Source of the DNA: a virus
Taxonomy: Duplodnaviria; Heunggongvirae; Uroviricota; Caudoviricetes
Length of the DNA stretch: 64,000 nt
Virus record (IMG/VR): IMGVR_UViG_2778260992_000001
Strand: one strand, 5' to 3'
A program made the position numbers and the translations under genes. Positions 42,890 through 48,986 of the stretch are shown here, piece by piece; within the stretch, counting starts at the first letter, position 1, and every line of letters starts with the position of its first letter. The notes below the pieces were generated by a model that was not told where the DNA came from, searched no databases, and was given only the letters and a program-made list of their open reading frames with translations.

Positions 42890-42937
42890 TTAGCGCAATG
42901 AATGCGTAGAATTAACGGAAAAAGGAGTTTTCCATCA

Positions 42938-43684
42938 ATGTCTAATACCCATGTAAAAAACATCAAACTTGGTGCCTGTAAGGTGTCGTTTGGTGGTGTG
43001 GATTTGGGTTACACCAAAGGTGGTGTTCAGGTTGAAGTAGCCACTGAAACGCTGAAAGTCACCGTCGATCAGTTGGGGCAGACCGTAATTTCCGAATTAG
43101 TTCAGGGGCGCAACATTACCATCACCGCGCCTCTGGCTGAGTCTGTACTCCAAAACATGGTTGACCTGATGCCCGGTTCTACTCTGAGCGAAGATGACAA
43201 CTCTGTCACGATCACATCTGCACAGGGCGTCAACCTGATCGATGTGGCGAAGGAGCTGGTTCTGACTCCGCAGGACACCACCGACTATGTGTTGACCATT
43301 CCGAAAGCGGCAACCGCGGGCAACTTCACTATGACCTACCAGTCTGATGATGTTCGTGTGTTCTCTGTTCAGTTCAGCGCATACCCGGATGATGAAGGCG
43401 TTCTGGGCAAAATGAGCGGTCCCAAACCGGTAAAAACTGTGTCGATCACACCGGAATCTCCAACCGTAAAAGCTGGAGAAACTGTGCAACTGACAGCCGA
43501 AATCACTCCAGCTGATGCCGCAGACAAAACCGGTGTTTGGGAATCTGAAGACCAGGAAAAGGCCACGGTAGATCAAACGGGTCTTGTGCGTGGTGTGGCG
43601 CAGGGTACTGCAAACATCTCCTTCACCAGCAATAGCGGTGCTAAGAAGGCAACTAAGTCAGTAACGATTAACTCCGCAGATTAA
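42938..43684 (+). CDS. major tail protein with C-terminal Ig-like domain
   Basis: RBS aaaggag; C-terminal ~80 aa Big_2-like (ATVDQTGLVRGVAQGTANISF); position before chaperone/tape-measure genes. Confidence 0.65.
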   Translation: MSNTHVKNIKLGACKVSFGGVDLGYTKGGVQVEVATETLKVTVDQLGQTVISELVQGRNITITAPLAESVLQNMVDLMPGSTLSEDDNSVTITSAQGVNLIDVAKELVLTPQDTTDYVLTIPKAATAGNFTMTYQSDDVRVFSVQFSAYPDDEGVLGKMSGPKPVKTVSITPESPTVKAGETVQLTAEITPADAADKTGVWESEDQEKATVDQTGLVRGVAQGTANISFTSNSGAKKATKSVTINSAD

Positions 43685-43697
43685 TCAGTAATTAAGC

Positions 43698-43724
43698 AGA
43701 GGCTCAGGATGAGCCTCTCTTTTA
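43698..43724 (+). terminator. terminator/attenuator hairpin after major tail gene
   Basis: agaggctcaggatgagcctct + cttttaaaa. Confidence 0.5.
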
Positions 43725-43739
43725 AAAGGATTTTAACCA

Positions 43740-44057
43740 ATGACCAAATTACTCGATCTCGATTCCATTCTGCCTCCGAAGAAAAGTATCAAATTTGGCG
43801 GTCAGGAATATCCCATCGTTGAAATGACGGTTGGTTTGTTCGTTTCCATCAAGCAGATGGAAGGCAAAGATCTCATGAACATGTCCCCTGTTGAGCAAGT
43901 GACAGCTTATGCAGATCTGGTTCGTAAGGTTATCCCTTCAGTACCTGACGAAGTTCTTGAAAAACTGACTGTTCCGCAACTCCAGCAGATCTTCACCTTC
44001 GCTATGGAAGTGATTGATGAAGAAAACGAAAAAGCGGCTGGCGAAGGGGCAAAGTAA
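43740..44057 (+). CDS. tail assembly chaperone (lambda G-like)
   Basis: 105-aa ORF immediately upstream of tape measure gene. Confidence 0.6.
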   Translation: MTKLLDLDSILPPKKSIKFGGQEYPIVEMTVGLFVSIKQMEGKDLMNMSPVEQVTAYADLVRKVIPSVPDEVLEKLTVPQLQQIFTFAMEVIDEENEKAAGEGAK

Positions 44058-44407
44058 TTTCCCGCGATGAATCCGGGACAAGGACCGTTTCAATAGATCT
44101 CGGATTCTATTTCAGTCGTGTAGTTGCTCACTACGCTGTGTCGCCATTAGAGCTATTGAACATCCCTCTCACGATGTTCTGGATGCTCAGTCGCAATATA
44201 GACCGTCTGCGTGCGGAAGAGGATGTCCGCAACTTACAAGTCGCTCGTGCGTCCCAGGCGGATGGCGAGGCTGTGAAGGCGTTCATGGAGGGTTTGCAAC
44301 TCAGGATTGGAAGACCAGTCGTAACAGATAAAGTCTACGATCCAAGCCAGGATAAGGCAGACCCTGACGCCAAAGAGCAACTGATGCAAATATTTGGCAG
44401 AGGATGA
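43740..44407 (+). CDS. putative tail assembly chaperone -1 frameshift product (lambda GT-like)
   Basis: the -1 frame is open from 44021 to stop at 44405-44407; candidate slippery run gaaaaag at 44028-44034. Confidence 0.4.
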
Positions 44408-44414
44408 CAAGGGA

Positions 44415-47400
44415 ATGTCACAAAACGTAGAGTTTATCCTGTCGCTGGAAGACAAACAGTTTACAGCGTCAATCGATCGTGCGGGGAAACTGCTTACTCG
44501 ATTTGGTGAGCAGGTAACAAAGCCTGCTCAAAAAATCCAAACCTTTGAACGCTCTTTGGGTTCGGTCGCCCGTATCATTGGCGTTCTGGAAAGCAAGCTC
44601 GATTCTACGGCAGATAAACTACAGGATGTAGCTGCCGGTTTTGAGCTTGCTTCAGATGCTACGCGTAAAATGCGTGGCAACATCACCAGCCTCAATTCTG
44701 GTCTTAAAGCCCTGATTGAGCGCGTCGATACGACAACTTCTTCAGTAGATAAACTCACCGCGTCATTACGTAAAGTGCAATCAGAGCTAAATGATTTCTC
44801 TGATTGGGCGACCTATGCAAGCAAAAGCGCAAGCCGCTTTGGTACTGAGGTCAAAGAAGCCTCTGCGTCCGTGAGTGGCATGAATACGCGCCTTAATACC
44901 ACGACGAAGCGACTCAGTAATTGGGGTGTCACAACGAGTCAGGCTGCCGAGGGACTGAAAAAGGTTCGTGAGCAGATGGACGAAGTTATTGGACGTCAGC
45001 AACTGATTAGCAAGCCGGTACGCGTTCGTACATCTGGAAGTGGCGATGGTGGTAGCGGGCAGCGTAGCGGCGCTTCTGGTCACAGCGGTAAAAATAACGA
45101 AGGAGGTATGTTCTCTGGCCTTCGTGGCAACATTTTCCTGCTTGGCGAGATCGGAGATGCTGCCAGAACGGTTACTGACATCATGTTTGGGTGGCAGAAG
45201 CCTATTGTTGAAGCTGCGGCCGAAATGGAACGTATGCGGGTGATGCTTCGAGGGTTGAATAAGGAGAAGTCCAACCCTGGCCAGGCTGCCGCTGATGATA
45301 TGAAGTACATCGTAGACATGGCTCAAAATGCGCCGTTCGCGATGCAGGCGTTAACAGATTCCTTCGTGAAGTTTCGTTCTGCTGGCTTAGATCCAACCGA
45401 TGGTTCTCTGAAGGCGCTGGTGGACTCCGTTGCTCGTTTTGGTGGTGATAGTGAGCTGTTGAAACGTGCGGCTGTGGCCGTTCAGCAGATGTCCGGTAAG
45501 GGCGTCGTGTCAATGGAAGAGCTACGTCAGCAATTAGGTGAAGCCGTTCCTAACGCGATGCAGGCAATGGCAGACGCCGCAGGCATCACTATGGGGGAAC
45601 TGACTAAAGCCGTTGCCAGCGGTACGGTTGAGGCAAAGCAGGCGTTGTCTCTGATGTTTGTTGGTCTGCGTGCGGAGAACGAGAACGCAGCGAAAGACAT
45701 GATGCAAACCTACACAGGTGCGCTGGCGCAACTTCAGACGTCATTCACGTTATTTGCTGATCGAGTTGGTCAGGCTGGATATCTGGATTCTCTATCAAAG
45801 GGGATGAAAGAACTGGCTTCAATCATGAATAGCGCCGAAGGGATTTCGTTTGCCAATTCTTTAGGTTCGGGGTTAACGACGGCAATCGATGGGTTGCGTC
45901 AGCTTGCTCAATGGTTAGCAAAGAACCAAGAGCTGGTAATTAATCTCGGTAAGGTCGTGGCCGCGATGGTTGCGTTCAAACTGATGCGAGCAGGGATCAT
46001 GGGAGTAGTTGGCGCAGGCAGCCAGATGGTTAGCACCTTTGCCACGATGGCGACCGCCATACAGACTCCATTTAACCTCGGCGCTACAGCAGTAACTCGA
46101 TTCAATCGTGCGGCACGTATGGGGTTGGCTCCGATCCCCTCTCTTATTTTCGCCATTCGTGGGGCGATTACGGGGCTTAAAGGTGCTTTTGCAGGATTAA
46201 CGGCGTTCATTGCAGCAAACCCTATAGGGGCAGCATTTACAGTTGCCACTGTAGCTGTTGCTGGCCTAATCACGTACATGACCATGCTCCGCAGCGAAAC
46301 TTCAAAGGTCGTTGACGAGATTAGGAAAATACCAGAAGCGATGACAGCGGCCAAACGTGCACAAATGGCCGACCGCGCAGAAAAGCTCGAAAAGCAGATT
46401 CTTGCTGATCAACGAGCATTAAAAACTGGTGAGGGTGTTAATTACGTATCTAACTCTGCCGGTGTTATTACTCACAAAGAGTCGAAGGCTGACATTGAAG
46501 CACGCCTGAAAAAAAATCAGGAAGAGTATCAAAAGATAACCGGCACGATAGCTCTTGGTGACGGCGCTGTAGCAAAGCGTTTGGCTAAAGAGGCTGCCGA
46601 ATCTCAGATTGAGAAAATTCGAGCGGAAAACCAGATTTTCGCGGCAACATTCGTGAAAGCCCGGCAGGAGGCTCTGGAGAAGATCCAGAAAATCAATGAT
46701 GACAGTTCACTTTCAGATGATGAAAAGAACAAGCTATTGGCACCGTTACGTGAAACGGTAAACAAAAGCTATCTGGAGCCTGCGCAAAAACTGGTTGATT
46801 CACTTTCTTCTCGTAAGAATGCGACCGAGAAGCAAATCGCGACTCTTAATGATCAGCTTGAAAAAGCCAAAAAGGATGGAAATACCGAGCAGATCCAGAA
46901 ACTTCAAGGCAGTATTCGTGGTTATCAGGAGCATTTGGAAACCGTTGCTCAGGAACTGACTCAGGCAGAGTTCGAGAGAGATAACGCGGCCAAAACTGGT
47001 AAGGGCGTGATGTCAAACCAGGGGACTGTTCTTGGGTTAGGTACAACTGATAAAGCTGCTCAGAAGGCGCTGGCGCAATATATGCGAAACCAGATGGATT
47101 CTGCGACTTATCAGCGTACTTTGCCTGACGGCACTCCGATGATGGACTTCGAAGGTAAGCCTATTATTGGGCCTAAACAACTCAAGACGCAGCTTAATTT
47201 GCAGAAAGCATCCAGTGCCAGCTCTCTGGAGAAAATGAGCGATGAAGAGCGTGCCGCAGCCATTGCTGCACTGACTAAAGCTCGTGAACAGGATGCCGCA
47301 GCTGCCGAGAAAGCCGCCCAACGATCAGCTAACGCCTCGCAGCGTGCGGCCAAGAAGGAGCAGGCAGCGCAACAGAAACTGGCAGCCGGATACCAGAAGG

Positions 47401-48986
47401 CTCTGGATAAAGCCGATCAGCTTATGGGGCAAATGGGTGAAAGCTCTAAGGCTACGGTATCGTTTGATCAGTCTCTTCGCGATACAACGAAATCGCTGAC
47501 AGATTTGGCTAATGCGGTTCCTAACGAGTTCATCACTCAAGAGATGATCGACAAGGCGAAAAAACGTCTTGAAGACCTCAAAAATGCGACACCTGAATAT
47601 CGCGAGATGTTTAATCGCCGCAATGTTGAGCAGATGATCTCCACTTGGGCACCGGAGGCGGATTCCATTATTAGTGCTGGCTATACGCCGTCTCGCGAAG
47701 AGAAAGTTGCTGATTTCGAAGACACCTACAACCGCAATCTCAAAGCGTTGATAGAACTTCGTGATAAGGCGTCTGATCCTAAAGTTGTGGCGCTTTATAC
47801 AAAGAAAATCAATCAACTGATTGCTGCTGGCAATACCGCGCTTATTAAAGAGACGGGGACTGCGACGCAGAAGTTGGCACTGGAATACGAAAACTTGGCA
47901 GAGCAGATCGAAAGCACCTGGACTGATTTGTTTAGTGGCTTAACTGATGTCCTGACTGATTTCGTTATTAACGGGAAGATGAGCTTCTCCAGCCTATCTC
48001 AGTCCATTTTGAAAGATATCACCAATATGGTCGTGAAGTCGCAAATCACGCTGCCTCTAATGAACATGTTGGGGATGGGAACCACCGCAGCTGGTAGTTC
48101 ACAGAGTGGCAATTTGCTCACTGGAGTTGCTTCTGCCGTTGCCAATCAAGGTGTACGAATGGGCAACACTGTTAATGGCGACAAGTCGGTAGGAGAAGCC
48201 ACGAAGGAGACGTCCAGTTCGGTAACTGGATTGGGGCAAACAACACAGCAGACCACCAGCGCAATTGGCACAGCAACAAATGCGATTGGTAGCTGGGTAT
48301 CGGGGCTATTTGATAGCACCGAAGCCAAAGATGCTGAGACAAAAGCAGTGAAGGACTCCATCTTCTCGATGCAGAACCTCAGCTCTGTTACCGGCGCTCT
48401 GTCTGCCGCGTTTGCAATGCTTGGAGCTAATGCTTCCGGCTCTGGTAATAAGTGGTTGAATTTCGGCGCGACAGTTGCATCTGGTTTGGTTTCAGTATGG
48501 GCTGGTGGTGGATTTGATGGATTGATGTCCGGTTCTTCTGGCTCAACTTCCGGGTTCAACAATCTGACCAGTTCTGCTGCCGATGGCACGAATGGTATTC
48601 CTGCAATTCCGAAGTTTGCAAATGGTGGCATATTCGGAAAAGACGGCGTGATCCCGCTCCGGGCATACCAGAAAGGCGGTATCGCCAACTCACCTCAATT
48701 GGCGTTGTTTGGGGAAGGCGATATGAATGAGGCGTATGTTCCATTGCCTGATGGTCGAACAATCCCTGTAACGCTCAGTACCGATGGTATGAGTGGAGGA
48801 GGAAATGTTCTTTCTCCGGTATCAATTGAGATCAACGTCCATAGTGACGGTAGCACAACTGAATCCGGCGATACAGAAAGCATATGGAACAATGCCGCTC
48901 AACGGATGAAAGCAATCGCGCTTGAGACTATCGCTCAAGAGAAACGCCCTGGCGGATCACTCAACCCAAACACTCAACGTAACTAA
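44415..48986 (+). CDS. tail tape measure protein
   Basis: ~1520 aa, coiled-coil-rich with Gly-rich hydrophobic segment; ATG 44415 preferred over TTG 44394. Confidence 0.85.
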   Translation: MSQNVEFILSLEDKQFTASIDRAGKLLTRFGEQVTKPAQKIQTFERSLGSVARIIGVLESKLDSTADKLQDVAAGFELASDATRKMRGNITSLNSGLKALIERVDTTTSSVDKLTASLRKVQSELNDFSDWATYASKSASRFGTEVKEASASVSGMNTRLNTTTKRLSNWGVTTSQAAEGLKKVREQMDEVIGRQQLISKPVRVRTSGSGDGGSGQRSGASGHSGKNNEGGMFSGLRGNIFLLGEIGDAARTVTDIMFGWQKPIVEAAAEMERMRVMLRGLNKEKSNPGQAAADDMKYIVDMAQNAPFAMQALTDSFVKFRSAGLDPTDGSLKALVDSVARFGGDSELLKRAAVAVQQMSGKGVVSMEELRQQLGEAVPNAMQAMADAAGITMGELTKAVASGTVEAKQALSLMFVGLRAENENAAKDMMQTYTGALAQLQTSFTLFADRVGQAGYLDSLSKGMKELASIMNSAEGISFANSLGSGLTTAIDGLRQLAQWLAKNQELVINLGKVVAAMVAFKLMRAGIMGVVGAGSQMVSTFATMATAIQTPFNLGATAVTRFNRAARMGLAPIPSLIFAIRGAITGLKGAFAGLTAFIAANPIGAAFTVATVAVAGLITYMTMLRSETSKVVDEIRKIPEAMTAAKRAQMADRAEKLEKQILADQRALKTGEGVNYVSNSAGVITHKESKADIEARLKKNQEEYQKITGTIALGDGAVAKRLAKEAAESQIEKIRAENQIFAATFVKARQEALEKIQKINDDSSLSDDEKNKLLAPLRETVNKSYLEPAQKLVDSLSSRKNATEKQIATLNDQLEKAKKDGNTEQIQKLQGSIRGYQEHLETVAQELTQAEFERDNAAKTGKGVMSNQGTVLGLGTTDKAAQKALAQYMRNQMDSATYQRTLPDGTPMMDFEGKPIIGPKQLKTQLNLQKASSASSLEKMSDEERAAAIAALTKAREQDAAAAEKAAQRSANASQRAAKKEQAAQQKLAAGYQKALDKADQLMGQMGESSKATVSFDQSLRDTTKSLTDLANAVPNEFITQEMIDKAKKRLEDLKNATPEYREMFNRRNVEQMISTWAPEADSIISAGYTPSREEKVADFEDTYNRNLKALIELRDKASDPKVVALYTKKINQLIAAGNTALIKETGTATQKLALEYENLAEQIESTWTDLFSGLTDVLTDFVINGKMSFSSLSQSILKDITNMVVKSQITLPLMNMLGMGTTAAGSSQSGNLLTGVASAVANQGVRMGNTVNGDKSVGEATKETSSSVTGLGQTTQQTTSAIGTATNAIGSWVSGLFDSTEAKDAETKAVKDSIFSMQNLSSVTGALSAAFAMLGANASGSGNKWLNFGATVASGLVSVWAGGGFDGLMSGSSGSTSGFNNLTSSAADGTNGIPAIPKFANGGIFGKDGVIPLRAYQKGGIANSPQLALFGEGDMNEAYVPLPDGRTIPVTLSTDGMSGGGNVLSPVSIEINVHSDGSTTESGDTESIWNNAAQRMKAIALETIAQEKRPGGSLNPNTQRN

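What the first reader, a model, noticed from the sequence alone, without database searches (positions are those of the whole stretch)
44021..44407. Candidate programmed -1 frameshift joining the G-like chaperone to a T-like extension
The -1 frame is open from 44021 (inside the last codons of the chaperone gene) to a stop at 44405-44407, which overlaps the tape-measure start. A lysine-codon run gaaaaag sits at 44028-44034. This mirrors the conserved lambda G/GT arrangement and predicts a ~230-aa fusion protein.
Basis: partly seen in the sequence, partly recalled or inferred. Interest (0 to 1): 0.5.

Follow-up and report, generated by a model that had tools for sequence, protein, structure and literature searches.

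The report
Tail chaperone frameshift, slip site relocated

Summary
The ORF geometry is real. A 105-aa gene (43740-44057) lies between the major tail protein and tape-measure genes. The -1 frame is open from 44021 to the TGA at 44405-44407.

The downstream ORF has no conserved start codon and no Shine-Dalgarno sequence. Even so, the 28 codons before its first possible start evolve as coding sequence (variable sites 10/2/22 by codon position; dN/dS 0.11-0.34).

In SSU5 and most relatives a -1-frame TGA lies downstream of it, and four lineages lack it. What is invariant across 34 distinct junction variants is G[C/T]A AAG TA[A/G], at 44049-44057 in the window. That is the shift-prone tetranucleotide A_AAG directly against the stop codon.

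Distant family members (29-48% identity) carry canonical G_GGA_AAG/A/C heptamers at the equivalent place. One of them also abuts TAA.

The predicted fusion is 222 aa with junction ...GEGAK|VISRDESG. A downstream RNA helix (44069-79 with 44097-107) shows covariation, but its spacing from the slip site is atypical.

The G part has a tail-assembly-chaperone-like predicted fold. The T part has no named relatives.

Verdict: an unannotated member of the well-known G/GT frameshift class with a minimal slip site. Interest is modest.

The parts
43740..44057 (+). G-like tail assembly chaperone gene (105 aa; stop TAA 44055-44057)
   Evidence: ORF. It lies between the Big_2 major tail protein (42902-43684) and the tape-measure gene, in the same order as in SSU5, Cyrano and others. 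It matches phrog_893 at 4.5e-49, function unknown, and has no Pfam hit. The family has 253 cluster representatives, and 3 of 102 members weakly match Phage_TAC_7. The AF2 model (pLDDT 84) matches several predicted structures annotated 'tail assembly chaperone' (best E 6.7e-5, TM up to 0.69).
44048..44054 (+). Proposed slip site G_GCA_AAG. The effective motif is the tetranucleotide A_AAG (44051-44054): Lys-tRNA re-pairs from AAG (44052-54) to AAA (44051-53).
   Evidence: G[C/T]A AAG is invariant in 27 distinct junction variants from 96 loci and in 34 distinct 85-nt junctions that include 38-48%-identity relatives. The base 5' of it varies (G/A/C/T). The site is positionally homologous to the canonical G_GGA_AAG TAA in L105. 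In E. coli, A_AAG is by far the most shift-prone tetramer (PMC4066793; PMC5009743).
44055..44057 (+). Zero-frame stop codon TAA directly 3' of the slip codon; a possible 'shifty stop' stimulator
   Evidence: The stop (TAA or TAG) is always adjacent to AAG in every SSU5-superfamily variant, with 0 nt between them. Family members with canonical heptamers have 0-15 nt between. A stimulatory role is inferred, not shown.
44054..44407 (+). T-like extension read in the -1 frame after the slip (117 codons, GTA 44054 to GGA 44402-04, stop TGA 44405-07)
   Evidence: Frame check. It matches phrog_1131 at 4.4e-40, function unknown. tblastn homology in relatives begins at its first residue. The 28 codons before the first possible start (GTG 44138) vary 10/2/22 at codon positions 1/2/3 and have dN/dS 0.11-0.34. 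There is no SD before GTG 44138. The first -1-frame start codon lies at +23 to +113 nt in different lineages. The conserved IDLGFYFSRV motif lies upstream of the annotated starts.
44028..44034 (+).
   Evidence: It is separated from the T part by a -1-frame TGA in SSU5 and 16 other variants, and it is absent in four lineages.
44069..44107 (+). Conserved RNA stem-loop: 5' arm 44069-44079 pairs with 3' arm 44097-44107. A possible basal extension pairs 44063-68 with 44115-20.
   Evidence: RNAalifold consensus. Across 22 diverse sequences 92.6% of cells pair, against 24-66% when the 3' partner is slid. Three pairs have changes on both sides. Pair 44072-44104 occurs as UA 13, AU 3, GC 3, UG 2. The extension is 82% paired with no covariation. 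The single-sequence fold is -17.9 kcal/mol with z = -1.27. The core helix starts 14 nt after AAG, or 8 nt if the extension forms.
44060..44078 (+). Alternative local hairpin (44060-64 with 44074-78, plus 44066-67 with 44072-73), mutually exclusive with the longer helix
   Evidence: MFE of short windows, with z about 0. It is 77% paired in 22 sequences with no meaningful covariation. It starts 5 nt after AAG, the canonical spacing.
44415..48986 (+). Tape measure protein gene (probable start ATG 44415)
   Evidence: ORF. The start position matches the annotations of SSU5, Cyrano and others. Relatives carry Pfam TMP_3 and Tape_meas_lam_C. An SD is present before ATG 44415 and none before TTG 44394.
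42902..43684 (+). Major tail protein with C-terminal Big_2 Ig-like domain (upstream neighbour)
   Evidence: Pfam Big_2 at 9.2e-26 and phrog_1280.

Best explanation
Genes 43740-44057 and 44054-44407 form the tail assembly chaperone pair of an SSU5-like siphovirus phage-plasmid.

Most ribosomes terminate at TAA 44055 and release the 105-aa G-like protein. A minority slip back one nucleotide at G_GCA_AAG (44048-44054). The single enterobacterial Lys-tRNA leaves AAG (44052-54) and re-pairs with AAA (44051-53). The next codon read is then GTA (44054-56) instead of the stop. Translation continues in the -1 frame to TGA 44405-07 and gives a 222-aa G-T fusion with the junction ...A-A-G-E-G-A-K | V-I-S-R-D-E-S-G....

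Shown here:
- the frame geometry;
- the absence of a conserved start or SD for the T part;
- purifying selection on the start-less stretch;
- invariance of A_AAG plus stop;
- canonical heptamers at the same place in distant relatives.

Inferred:
- that the slip is ribosomal and occurs at this tetranucleotide;
- that the adjacent stop codon (slow termination with Lys-tRNA in the P site) and/or the downstream stem-loop raise its frequency to the few-percent range needed;
- that, as in lambda, the G part binds the tape measure protein and the T part recruits the major tail protein.
For: Identity of the element and gene order:
- The window is 91-99% identical to SSU5, Cyrano and CMS-2020a.
- The gene order is major tail protein, G, T, tape measure.

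Frames:
- The -1 frame is open 44021-44407. The +1 frame is closed after 18 codons.

No own start for the T part:
- The first -1-frame start codon falls at six different positions among lineages.
- Gene callers give 74-116-aa products, or no product at all in L009.
- There is no SD before GTG 44138.

The start-less stretch is translated:
- Variable sites fall 10/2/22 by codon position and 13 columns vary only synonymously.
- dN/dS is 0.11-0.34.
- tblastn matches start at residue 1.
- The conserved IDLGFYF motif and the first helix of the AF2 model lie upstream of the annotated starts.

Slip site:
- The overlap shared by all relatives is only 13 nt.
- Within it, A_AAG plus TA[A/G] is invariant.
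- Distant members have G_GGA_AAG (Rhizobium phages; L105, where it abuts TAA), G_GGA_AAA (L104, L106) and G_GGA_AAC (L107).
- The same 'A_AAG + TAA' arrangement, as C_CCA_AAG TAA, precedes a start-less -1 ORF encoding the Ig domain of the major tail protein in L009-L011.

Literature:
- A_AAG is the most efficient -1 tetramer in E. coli, reaching up to 5.6% with a strong stimulator (PMC4066793).
- NNA_AAG sites are used by IS1222 and occur in B. subtilis cdd. Lambda needs a G:GT ratio of about 30:1 (PMC5009743).

Protein fold:
- The G model resembles predicted structures annotated as tail assembly chaperones.
Against: - There is no direct evidence of the fusion protein. No database entry holds a clean G-T fusion.
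- The site is not a canonical heptamer. P-site re-pairing (GCA to GGC) is poor and the 5' base is not conserved.
- Tetramers without a stimulator are barely above background in reporter assays (PMC4066793), so a stimulator is required.
- None of the candidate stimulators is proven. The covarying helix begins 14 nt after AAG, further than the usual 5-9 nt. The well-spaced local hairpin and the basal extension show no covariation. Single-sequence folding z-scores are unremarkable.
- Neither half matches a named chaperone family by sequence. The T model is of moderate quality and has no named structural neighbours.
- Invariance of AAAGTAR could partly reflect dual coding constraint (K-stop in the G frame, K-V-I in the T frame).
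Confidence: 0.75

Rival explanations
1. The frameshift occurs where the first reader proposed, at the lysine run GAA AAA G (44028-44034). This would give a fusion with the junction ...ENEK|SGWRRGKVISR....
For: In the window and its closest relatives the -1 frame is open from 44021, so a slip there would reach the T part. Five consecutive A residues allow Lys-tRNA to re-pair AAA to AAA. One metagenome-derived protein (P0003) reads through exactly there.
Against: In SSU5 and 16 other junction variants a synonymous GGC to GGT change puts a TGA in the -1 frame downstream of the run, yet the T part stays intact and conserved. The run is absent in four lineages. The run is not an X_XXY_YYZ heptamer in the zero frame. 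P0003 changes frame a second time and looks like an assembly with homopolymer errors.
Confidence: 0.05
2. There is no frameshift. The downstream ORF is an independent small gene translated from an internal start such as GTG 44138, as the database records annotate it.
For: All deposited records annotate it this way. The L006 clade has an ATG only 23 nt after the G stop, which would include the conserved motif.
Against: No start codon position is conserved, with six different first-start positions among lineages, and there is no SD before GTG 44138. The 28 codons upstream of it are under purifying selection in the -1 frame and contain the most conserved motif of the family. Distant relatives carry canonical -1 heptamers in the overlap.
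Confidence: 0.07
3. The T part is made as a separate protein by termination-reinitiation (translational coupling) at a non-canonical codon overlapping the G stop, for example ATT 44057. It would not be a fusion.
For: The T frame begins to be conserved exactly at the G stop codon. Tight stop-start overlaps are common in phage operons (general knowledge).
Against: The codons at the junction (GTA, then ATT, ATA, GTT, GAA, ACA...) are not start codons and are not conserved. Relatives with heptamers 3-15 nt upstream of the stop fit frameshifting rather than reinitiation.
Confidence: 0.05

Closest known systems
Phage lambda G/GT tail assembly chaperones and their conserved -1 frameshift in tailed phages (Levin et al. 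1993; Xu, Hendrix and Duda 2004, as cited in PMC5009743)
   Same: Both have two overlapping ORFs between the major tail protein and tape-measure genes. The second ORF is in the -1 frame without its own start. [quoted passage not shown] Distant members of this same protein family use lambda's own heptamer G_GGA_AAG. The G part has a chaperone-like predicted fold.
   Different: There is no detectable sequence similarity to lambda gpG or gpT families. The slip site is reduced to the tetranucleotide A_AAG, is not a heptamer, and sits on the last sense codon directly against the stop. None of this is annotated in the public records.
Single-tRNA -1 frameshifting on NNA_AAG motifs: IS1222 transposase (G_CGA_AAG) and B. 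subtilis cdd (A_CGA_AAG) (PMC5009743; Licznar et al. 2003)
   Same: The A_AAG tetranucleotide has a non-repairing 5' codon. The mechanism depends on the Lys-tRNA that reads AAG weakly. Low-level frameshifting is expected.
   Different: The 5' codon here is GCA or GTA rather than CGA. The zero-frame stop is immediately adjacent. No conserved upstream SD-like element is present: GAAGGGG in the window is GAAGAAG or GAAGACG in relatives.
P2 gpE/E+E' and Mu gp41 chaperones (Pfam Phage_TAC_7)
   Same: These are also small chaperones with a -1 frameshift extension. Three of 102 members of the G-like family weakly match this Pfam model (best E 1.3e-4).
   Different: The window protein itself does not match, and those phages are myoviruses.
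Ig-like domains appended to phage structural proteins by programmed frameshift
   Same: In relatives L009-L011 the major tail protein ends C_CCA_AAG TAA, and a -1 ORF adds the Big_2 domain. This is the same slip-plus-stop arrangement as at G/T.
   Different: In the window the Big_2 domain is fused in frame (42902-43684), so this second frameshift is not present here.

Membership tests
Lambda-type G/GT tail assembly chaperone frameshift | Two consecutive ORFs located between the major tail protein gene and the tape measure gene | tested here: met
Lambda-type G/GT tail assembly chaperone frameshift | The second ORF overlaps the 3' end of the first in a shifted frame and lacks its own conserved start codon and RBS | tested here: met
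   The -1 frame is open from 44021. The shared overlap is 13 nt. First-start positions vary, and there is no SD before GTG 44138.
Lambda-type G/GT tail assembly chaperone frameshift | The start-less part of the second ORF is under protein-coding constraint | tested here: met
   Codon-position variability is 10/2/22 and dN/dS is 0.11-0.34.
Lambda-type G/GT tail assembly chaperone frameshift | Canonical X_XXY_YYZ slippery heptamer in the overlap | tested here: not met
   The window has G_GCA_AAG, where only the A_AAG tetramer can re-pair. Canonical G_GGA_AAN heptamers occur in distant family members.
Lambda-type G/GT tail assembly chaperone frameshift | Sequence homology to a named chaperone family (Pfam Phage_TAC_* or lambda gpT) | tested here: not met
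   The window's G, T and fusion products have no Pfam hit. Both PHROG families are of unknown function. Only 3 of 102 relatives weakly hit Phage_TAC_7.
Lambda-type G/GT tail assembly chaperone frameshift | Chaperone-like fold of the G part | tested here: met
   The AF2 model has pLDDT 84. BFVD matches annotated 'tail assembly chaperone' appear at ranks 1, 5, 7, 8, 15 and others, with E down to 6.7e-5 and TM 0.5-0.69. Foldseek found no significant PDB match.
Lambda-type G/GT tail assembly chaperone frameshift | T part recognisable as a T-like domain | tested here: inconclusive
   The AF2 model has pLDDT 68. The only significant structural hit is an unnamed homologue.
Lambda-type G/GT tail assembly chaperone frameshift | Two products (G and G-T) are made at a fixed ratio and both are needed for tail assembly | not testable with these tools
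   This requires protein expression, mass spectrometry and genetics.
Tetranucleotide (single-tRNA) -1 frameshift sites of the NNA_AAG type | A_AAG in the zero frame, such that Lys-tRNA can re-pair AAG to AAA | tested here: met
   The motif is at 44051-44054 and is invariant in all SSU5-superfamily variants.
Tetranucleotide (single-tRNA) -1 frameshift sites of the NNA_AAG type | A stimulatory element (downstream structure, upstream SD-like sequence or adjacent stop) | tested here: inconclusive
   The stop is always adjacent. The covarying helix has atypical spacing, and the well-spaced structures lack covariation. No conserved SD-like element is present. Rfam gives no match.
Tetranucleotide (single-tRNA) -1 frameshift sites of the NNA_AAG type | Measured frameshifting above background | not testable with these tools
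   This requires a reporter assay.

The most novel reading that the evidence does not exclude
In the SSU5 superfamily the classical heptamer has been replaced by a minimal cassette: the A_AAG tetranucleotide on the last sense codon, an obligatorily adjacent stop codon, and a conserved downstream stem-loop. In this reading, slow termination with Lys-tRNA in the P site substitutes for P-site tRNA re-pairing. The same 'A_AAG + stop' cassette is used modularly, for G/T in all members and for adding the Ig domain to the major tail protein in some. That would make it a distinct termination-coupled class of -1 frameshift signal in phage structural genes.
Probability: 0.3. Interest if true: 0.5.

Novelty: new member of a known kind. 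Interest (0 to 1): 0.35.

Why it matters
SSU5-like (pHCM2-type) phage-plasmids are widespread in Escherichia, Salmonella, Klebsiella, Yersinia and related bacteria. In every public record examined here, this pair is annotated as two unrelated hypothetical proteins with inconsistent starts (74-116 aa). Recognising the frameshift gives both genes a function and fixes the annotation. It also assigns two PHROG families of unknown function (893 and 1131) to the tail assembly chaperone role.

Mechanistically, it offers a natural series within one protein family, running from canonical G_GGA_AAG heptamers to a bare A_AAG against a stop codon. Such a series could be used to test how much an adjacent stop codon and a downstream helix can compensate for the loss of P-site re-pairing.

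Tried and rejected
- The +1 frame closes after 18 codons.
- Transcriptional slippage is unlikely because the conserved site has only three A residues. This is inference.
- An upstream SD-like stimulator (GAAGGGG, 44043-49) is not conserved and lies too close to the slip site.
- Pfam on the G, T and fusion products gave nothing.
- A PDB sequence-profile search gave only chance-level hits. Foldseek against the PDB gave nothing significant.
- Rfam gave no match.
- No internal promoter or terminator lies between G and T.
- The search for related loci with the 102-sequence G alignment failed because the alignment was too diverse. A first scan with the T alignment returned only close relatives.
- The Licznar et al. 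2003 paper, which holds efficiencies for GCA_AAG and GUA_AAG, is not in the library.
- No paper linking SSU5 to a chaperone frameshift was found.
- A search for an annotated G-T fusion protein found only error-laden or chimeric entries.

Full report
**What the window is.** The 751 bases around the finding are 98.7% identical to Escherichia phages CMS-2020a and Cyrano. They are 91% identical to Salmonella phage SSU5 and 88% identical to several Klebsiella phage-plasmids. The local gene order is:
- neck and tail-completion genes;
- a major tail protein with a C-terminal Big_2 Ig-like domain (42902-43684; Pfam Big_2 at 9.2e-26);
- a 105-aa ORF (43740-44057);
- a short ORF;
- a 1500-aa-class tape measure protein.

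This is the position where tailed phages carry their tail assembly chaperone pair.

**Checking the observation.**
- The -1 frame relative to the 105-aa gene has stops at 44015-17 and 44018-20. It then stays open from 44021 to TGA 44405-07, a run of 128 codons.
- From local base composition, the chance of such a run is about 1.3e-3.
- The string gaaaaag is at 44028-34, read as GAA AAA G in the zero frame.
- So the geometry is as described, with two corrections. The tape-measure gene most likely starts at ATG 44415, as annotated in relatives, where GAGG/AAGG lies upstream. TTG 44394 has no SD. The T stop therefore lies 7 nt before the tape-measure start and does not overlap it. The fusion would be 222 aa.

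**Is the downstream ORF translated by frameshifting?** Public records annotate two separate hypothetical proteins. Several results argue that this is wrong.
- The start assigned to the second ORF differs between records and gene callers. Called products range from 74 to 116 aa, and one locus (L009) has no call at all.
- Across 27 distinct junction variants from 96 loci, the first ATG, GTG or TTG in the -1 frame lies at +23, +80, +98, +101, +110 or +113 nt after the G stop.
- GTG 44138 in the window has no Shine-Dalgarno-like sequence.
- The 28 codons between the G stop and GTG 44138 nevertheless behave as coding sequence in the -1 frame. Variable sites fall 10/2/22 at codon positions 1/2/3, close to the 38/22/73 of the annotated part. 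dN/dS against divergent relatives is 0.11-0.34.
- tblastn matches in other genomes begin at the very first codon after the G stop.
- The most conserved motif of the family, IDLGFYFSRV, lies upstream of the annotated starts, both here and in Rhizobium phages whose T part is only 35% identical.
- The +1 frame closes after 18 codons. No promoter or terminator lies between the two ORFs.

- In SSU5 itself and in 16 other junction variants, a synonymous GGC to GGT change in the G frame creates a TGA in the -1 frame at the position of window 44041-43. That stop lies downstream of gaaaaag.
- In four lineages (L008, L009, L011, L019) the lysine run is absent.
- All of these keep an intact, conserved T part.
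- The overlap shared by all is therefore only the last 13 nt of the G gene. Within it the invariant sequence is G[C/T]A AAG TA[A/G], at window 44049-44057.
- The only re-pairing possible there is Lys-tRNA moving from AAG (44052-54) to AAA (44051-53), the tetranucleotide A_AAG. After that, GTA (44054-56) is read instead of the stop.
- The base 5' of the hexamer varies (G, A, C or T), so re-pairing of the P-site tRNA is not conserved.

**Support from distant relatives.** An exhaustive search found 253 cluster representatives of the G-like family. I fetched DNA for members at 29-48% identity. Every one has a start-less -1 ORF carrying the IDFGFYF motif. Their slip sites are:

| Locus | Site at the end of the G gene |
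|---|---|
| L102 | GCA AAG TAA |
| L103 | GCA AAG TAG |
| L105 | G_GGA_AAG TAA (lambda's heptamer, also abutting the stop) |
| L104, L106 | G_GGA_AAA |
| L107 | G_GGA_AAC |
| Rhizobium phages B1VFA and RHph_X66 | G_GGA_AAG |

The window's G_GCA_AAG TAA is thus positionally homologous to a canonical heptamer that has lost its first triplet.

A second example of the same arrangement turned up by chance. In L009-L011 the major tail protein gene ends C_CCA_AAG TAA, and a start-less -1 ORF supplies its Big_2 domain. [quoted passage not shown]

**Is A_AAG enough?**
- In E. coli reporter assays A_AAG is by far the best tetramer. Tetramers were barely above background without a stimulator and reached 0.26-5.6% with a strong pseudoknot (PMC4066793).
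- NNA_AAG sites are used by IS1222 and occur in B. subtilis cdd. Their efficiency depends on the tRNA that decodes the 5' codon (PMC5009743).
- Lambda needs only about one GT per 30 G (same review), so a few percent would suffice.
- Some stimulator is therefore expected. There are three candidates.
  - (a) The stop codon, which is always adjacent in this group. That it acts as a 'shifty stop' is inference.
  - (b) A stem-loop pairing 44069-79 with 44097-107. It pairs in 92.6% of cells across 22 diverse sequences, against 24-66% when the partner is slid. Three pairs have changes on both sides. At pair 44072-44104 the third base of a Gly codon tracks the first base of a variable codon 32 nt upstream (UA 13, AU 3, GC 3, UG 2), which I estimate as about three independent events. 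However, it starts 14 nt after AAG, further than the usual 5-9 nt.
  - (c) A basal extension (44063-68 with 44115-20) would reduce the spacer to 8 nt. A local hairpin (44060-78), which excludes the long helix, starts 5 nt after AAG. Neither shows covariation.
- Single-sequence folding energies are unremarkable, with z between 0 and -1.5.
- Rfam has no match.
- The SD-like GAAGGGG just upstream is not conserved.

**Identity of the proteins.**
- Neither half matches Pfam. Both fall in PHROGs of unknown function, 893 and 1131.
- Three of 102 G-family members weakly match Phage_TAC_7.
- An AlphaFold model of G (pLDDT 84; a beta-hairpin followed by helices) has no significant PDB neighbour by Foldseek. 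In the viral predicted-structure library its best matches are repeatedly annotated 'tail assembly chaperone' (E down to 6.7e-5, TM up to 0.69).
- The T model is weaker (pLDDT 68) and finds only an unnamed homologue. Its first strands and first helix are encoded upstream of any annotated start.
- No database entry contains a clean fusion. P0003 reads through at the A-run but shifts frame again and looks like an assembly error.
- No paper in the library links SSU5 to this frameshift.

**Conclusion.** The finding is a real, unannotated instance of the conserved G/GT tail-chaperone frameshift. The slip site moves from 44028-34 to 44051-54, next to the stop codon. I put the overall mechanism at about 0.75. 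The rivals each rate well below 0.1:
- independent initiation of the downstream ORF;
- reinitiation at the G stop.

It belongs to a well-known class, so interest is modest. The minimal 'A_AAG + stop' site, its second use in the major tail gene of relatives, and the covarying downstream helix are the parts worth an experiment.

Noticed in passing
L009 2158-2448, L010 2160-2450, L011 2159-2449 (homologous to window about 43400-43684): In these relatives the major tail protein gene ends ...GCC CCA AAG TAA, a canonical C_CCA_AAG heptamer against the stop. A start-less -1 ORF of 96 codons encodes the Big_2 Ig-like domain. This is probably a second programmed -1 frameshift in the same tail module. 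In the window the Big_2 domain is fused in frame. In Photorhabdus (L008) it is absent.
   Followed up: partly
window 43694-43723: A strong GC-rich hairpin (core stem 43698-43706 with 43710-43718, extended by 43694-96 with 43719-21) is followed by a short T run (UCUUUU ending at 43723), between the major tail protein stop and the G gene. It folds at -15.9 kcal/mol with z = -2.46. It looks like an intrinsic terminator or attenuator that would lower expression of the chaperone and tape-measure genes relative to the tail tube gene. The consensus scan did not call it because the run has only four T residues.
   Followed up: partly
window 44394-44417: The longest-ORF start of the tape measure gene (TTG 44394) has no SD. 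ATG 44415 has GAGG/AAGG upstream and matches the start annotated in SSU5, Cyrano and others.
   Followed up: yes
window 42902-42940: The longest-ORF start of the major tail protein (ATG 42902, 260 aa) is probably too far upstream. Relatives annotate 245-248 aa, and the PHROG match begins at residue 13, which would be ATG 42938 (MSNTHVKN...).
   Followed up: no
window 44060-44107: Two mutually exclusive RNA conformations share nucleotides 44069-44078. One is a local hairpin close to the slip site. The other is the longer covarying helix. Whether this reflects a switch is unknown.
   Followed up: partly
proteins P0003, P0013, P0011, P0179, P0181 (database entries homologous to window 43740-44450): Several public protein entries for this locus are chimeric read-throughs with multiple frame changes. 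They are most likely homopolymer or indel errors in metagenome or draft assemblies. P0003 shifts exactly in the A-run at the position of window 44028-34.
   Followed up: no
L018 (Yersinia pestis NCTC5923 contig, 108 kb), L015/L016 (Kluyvera), L019/L020 (Photorhabdus asymbiotica): The same chaperone pair, with the AAAGTAA junction, occurs on contigs of about 100 kb in Yersinia pestis, Kluyvera and Photorhabdus. This shows how widely the phage-plasmid tail module is spread.
   Followed up: no
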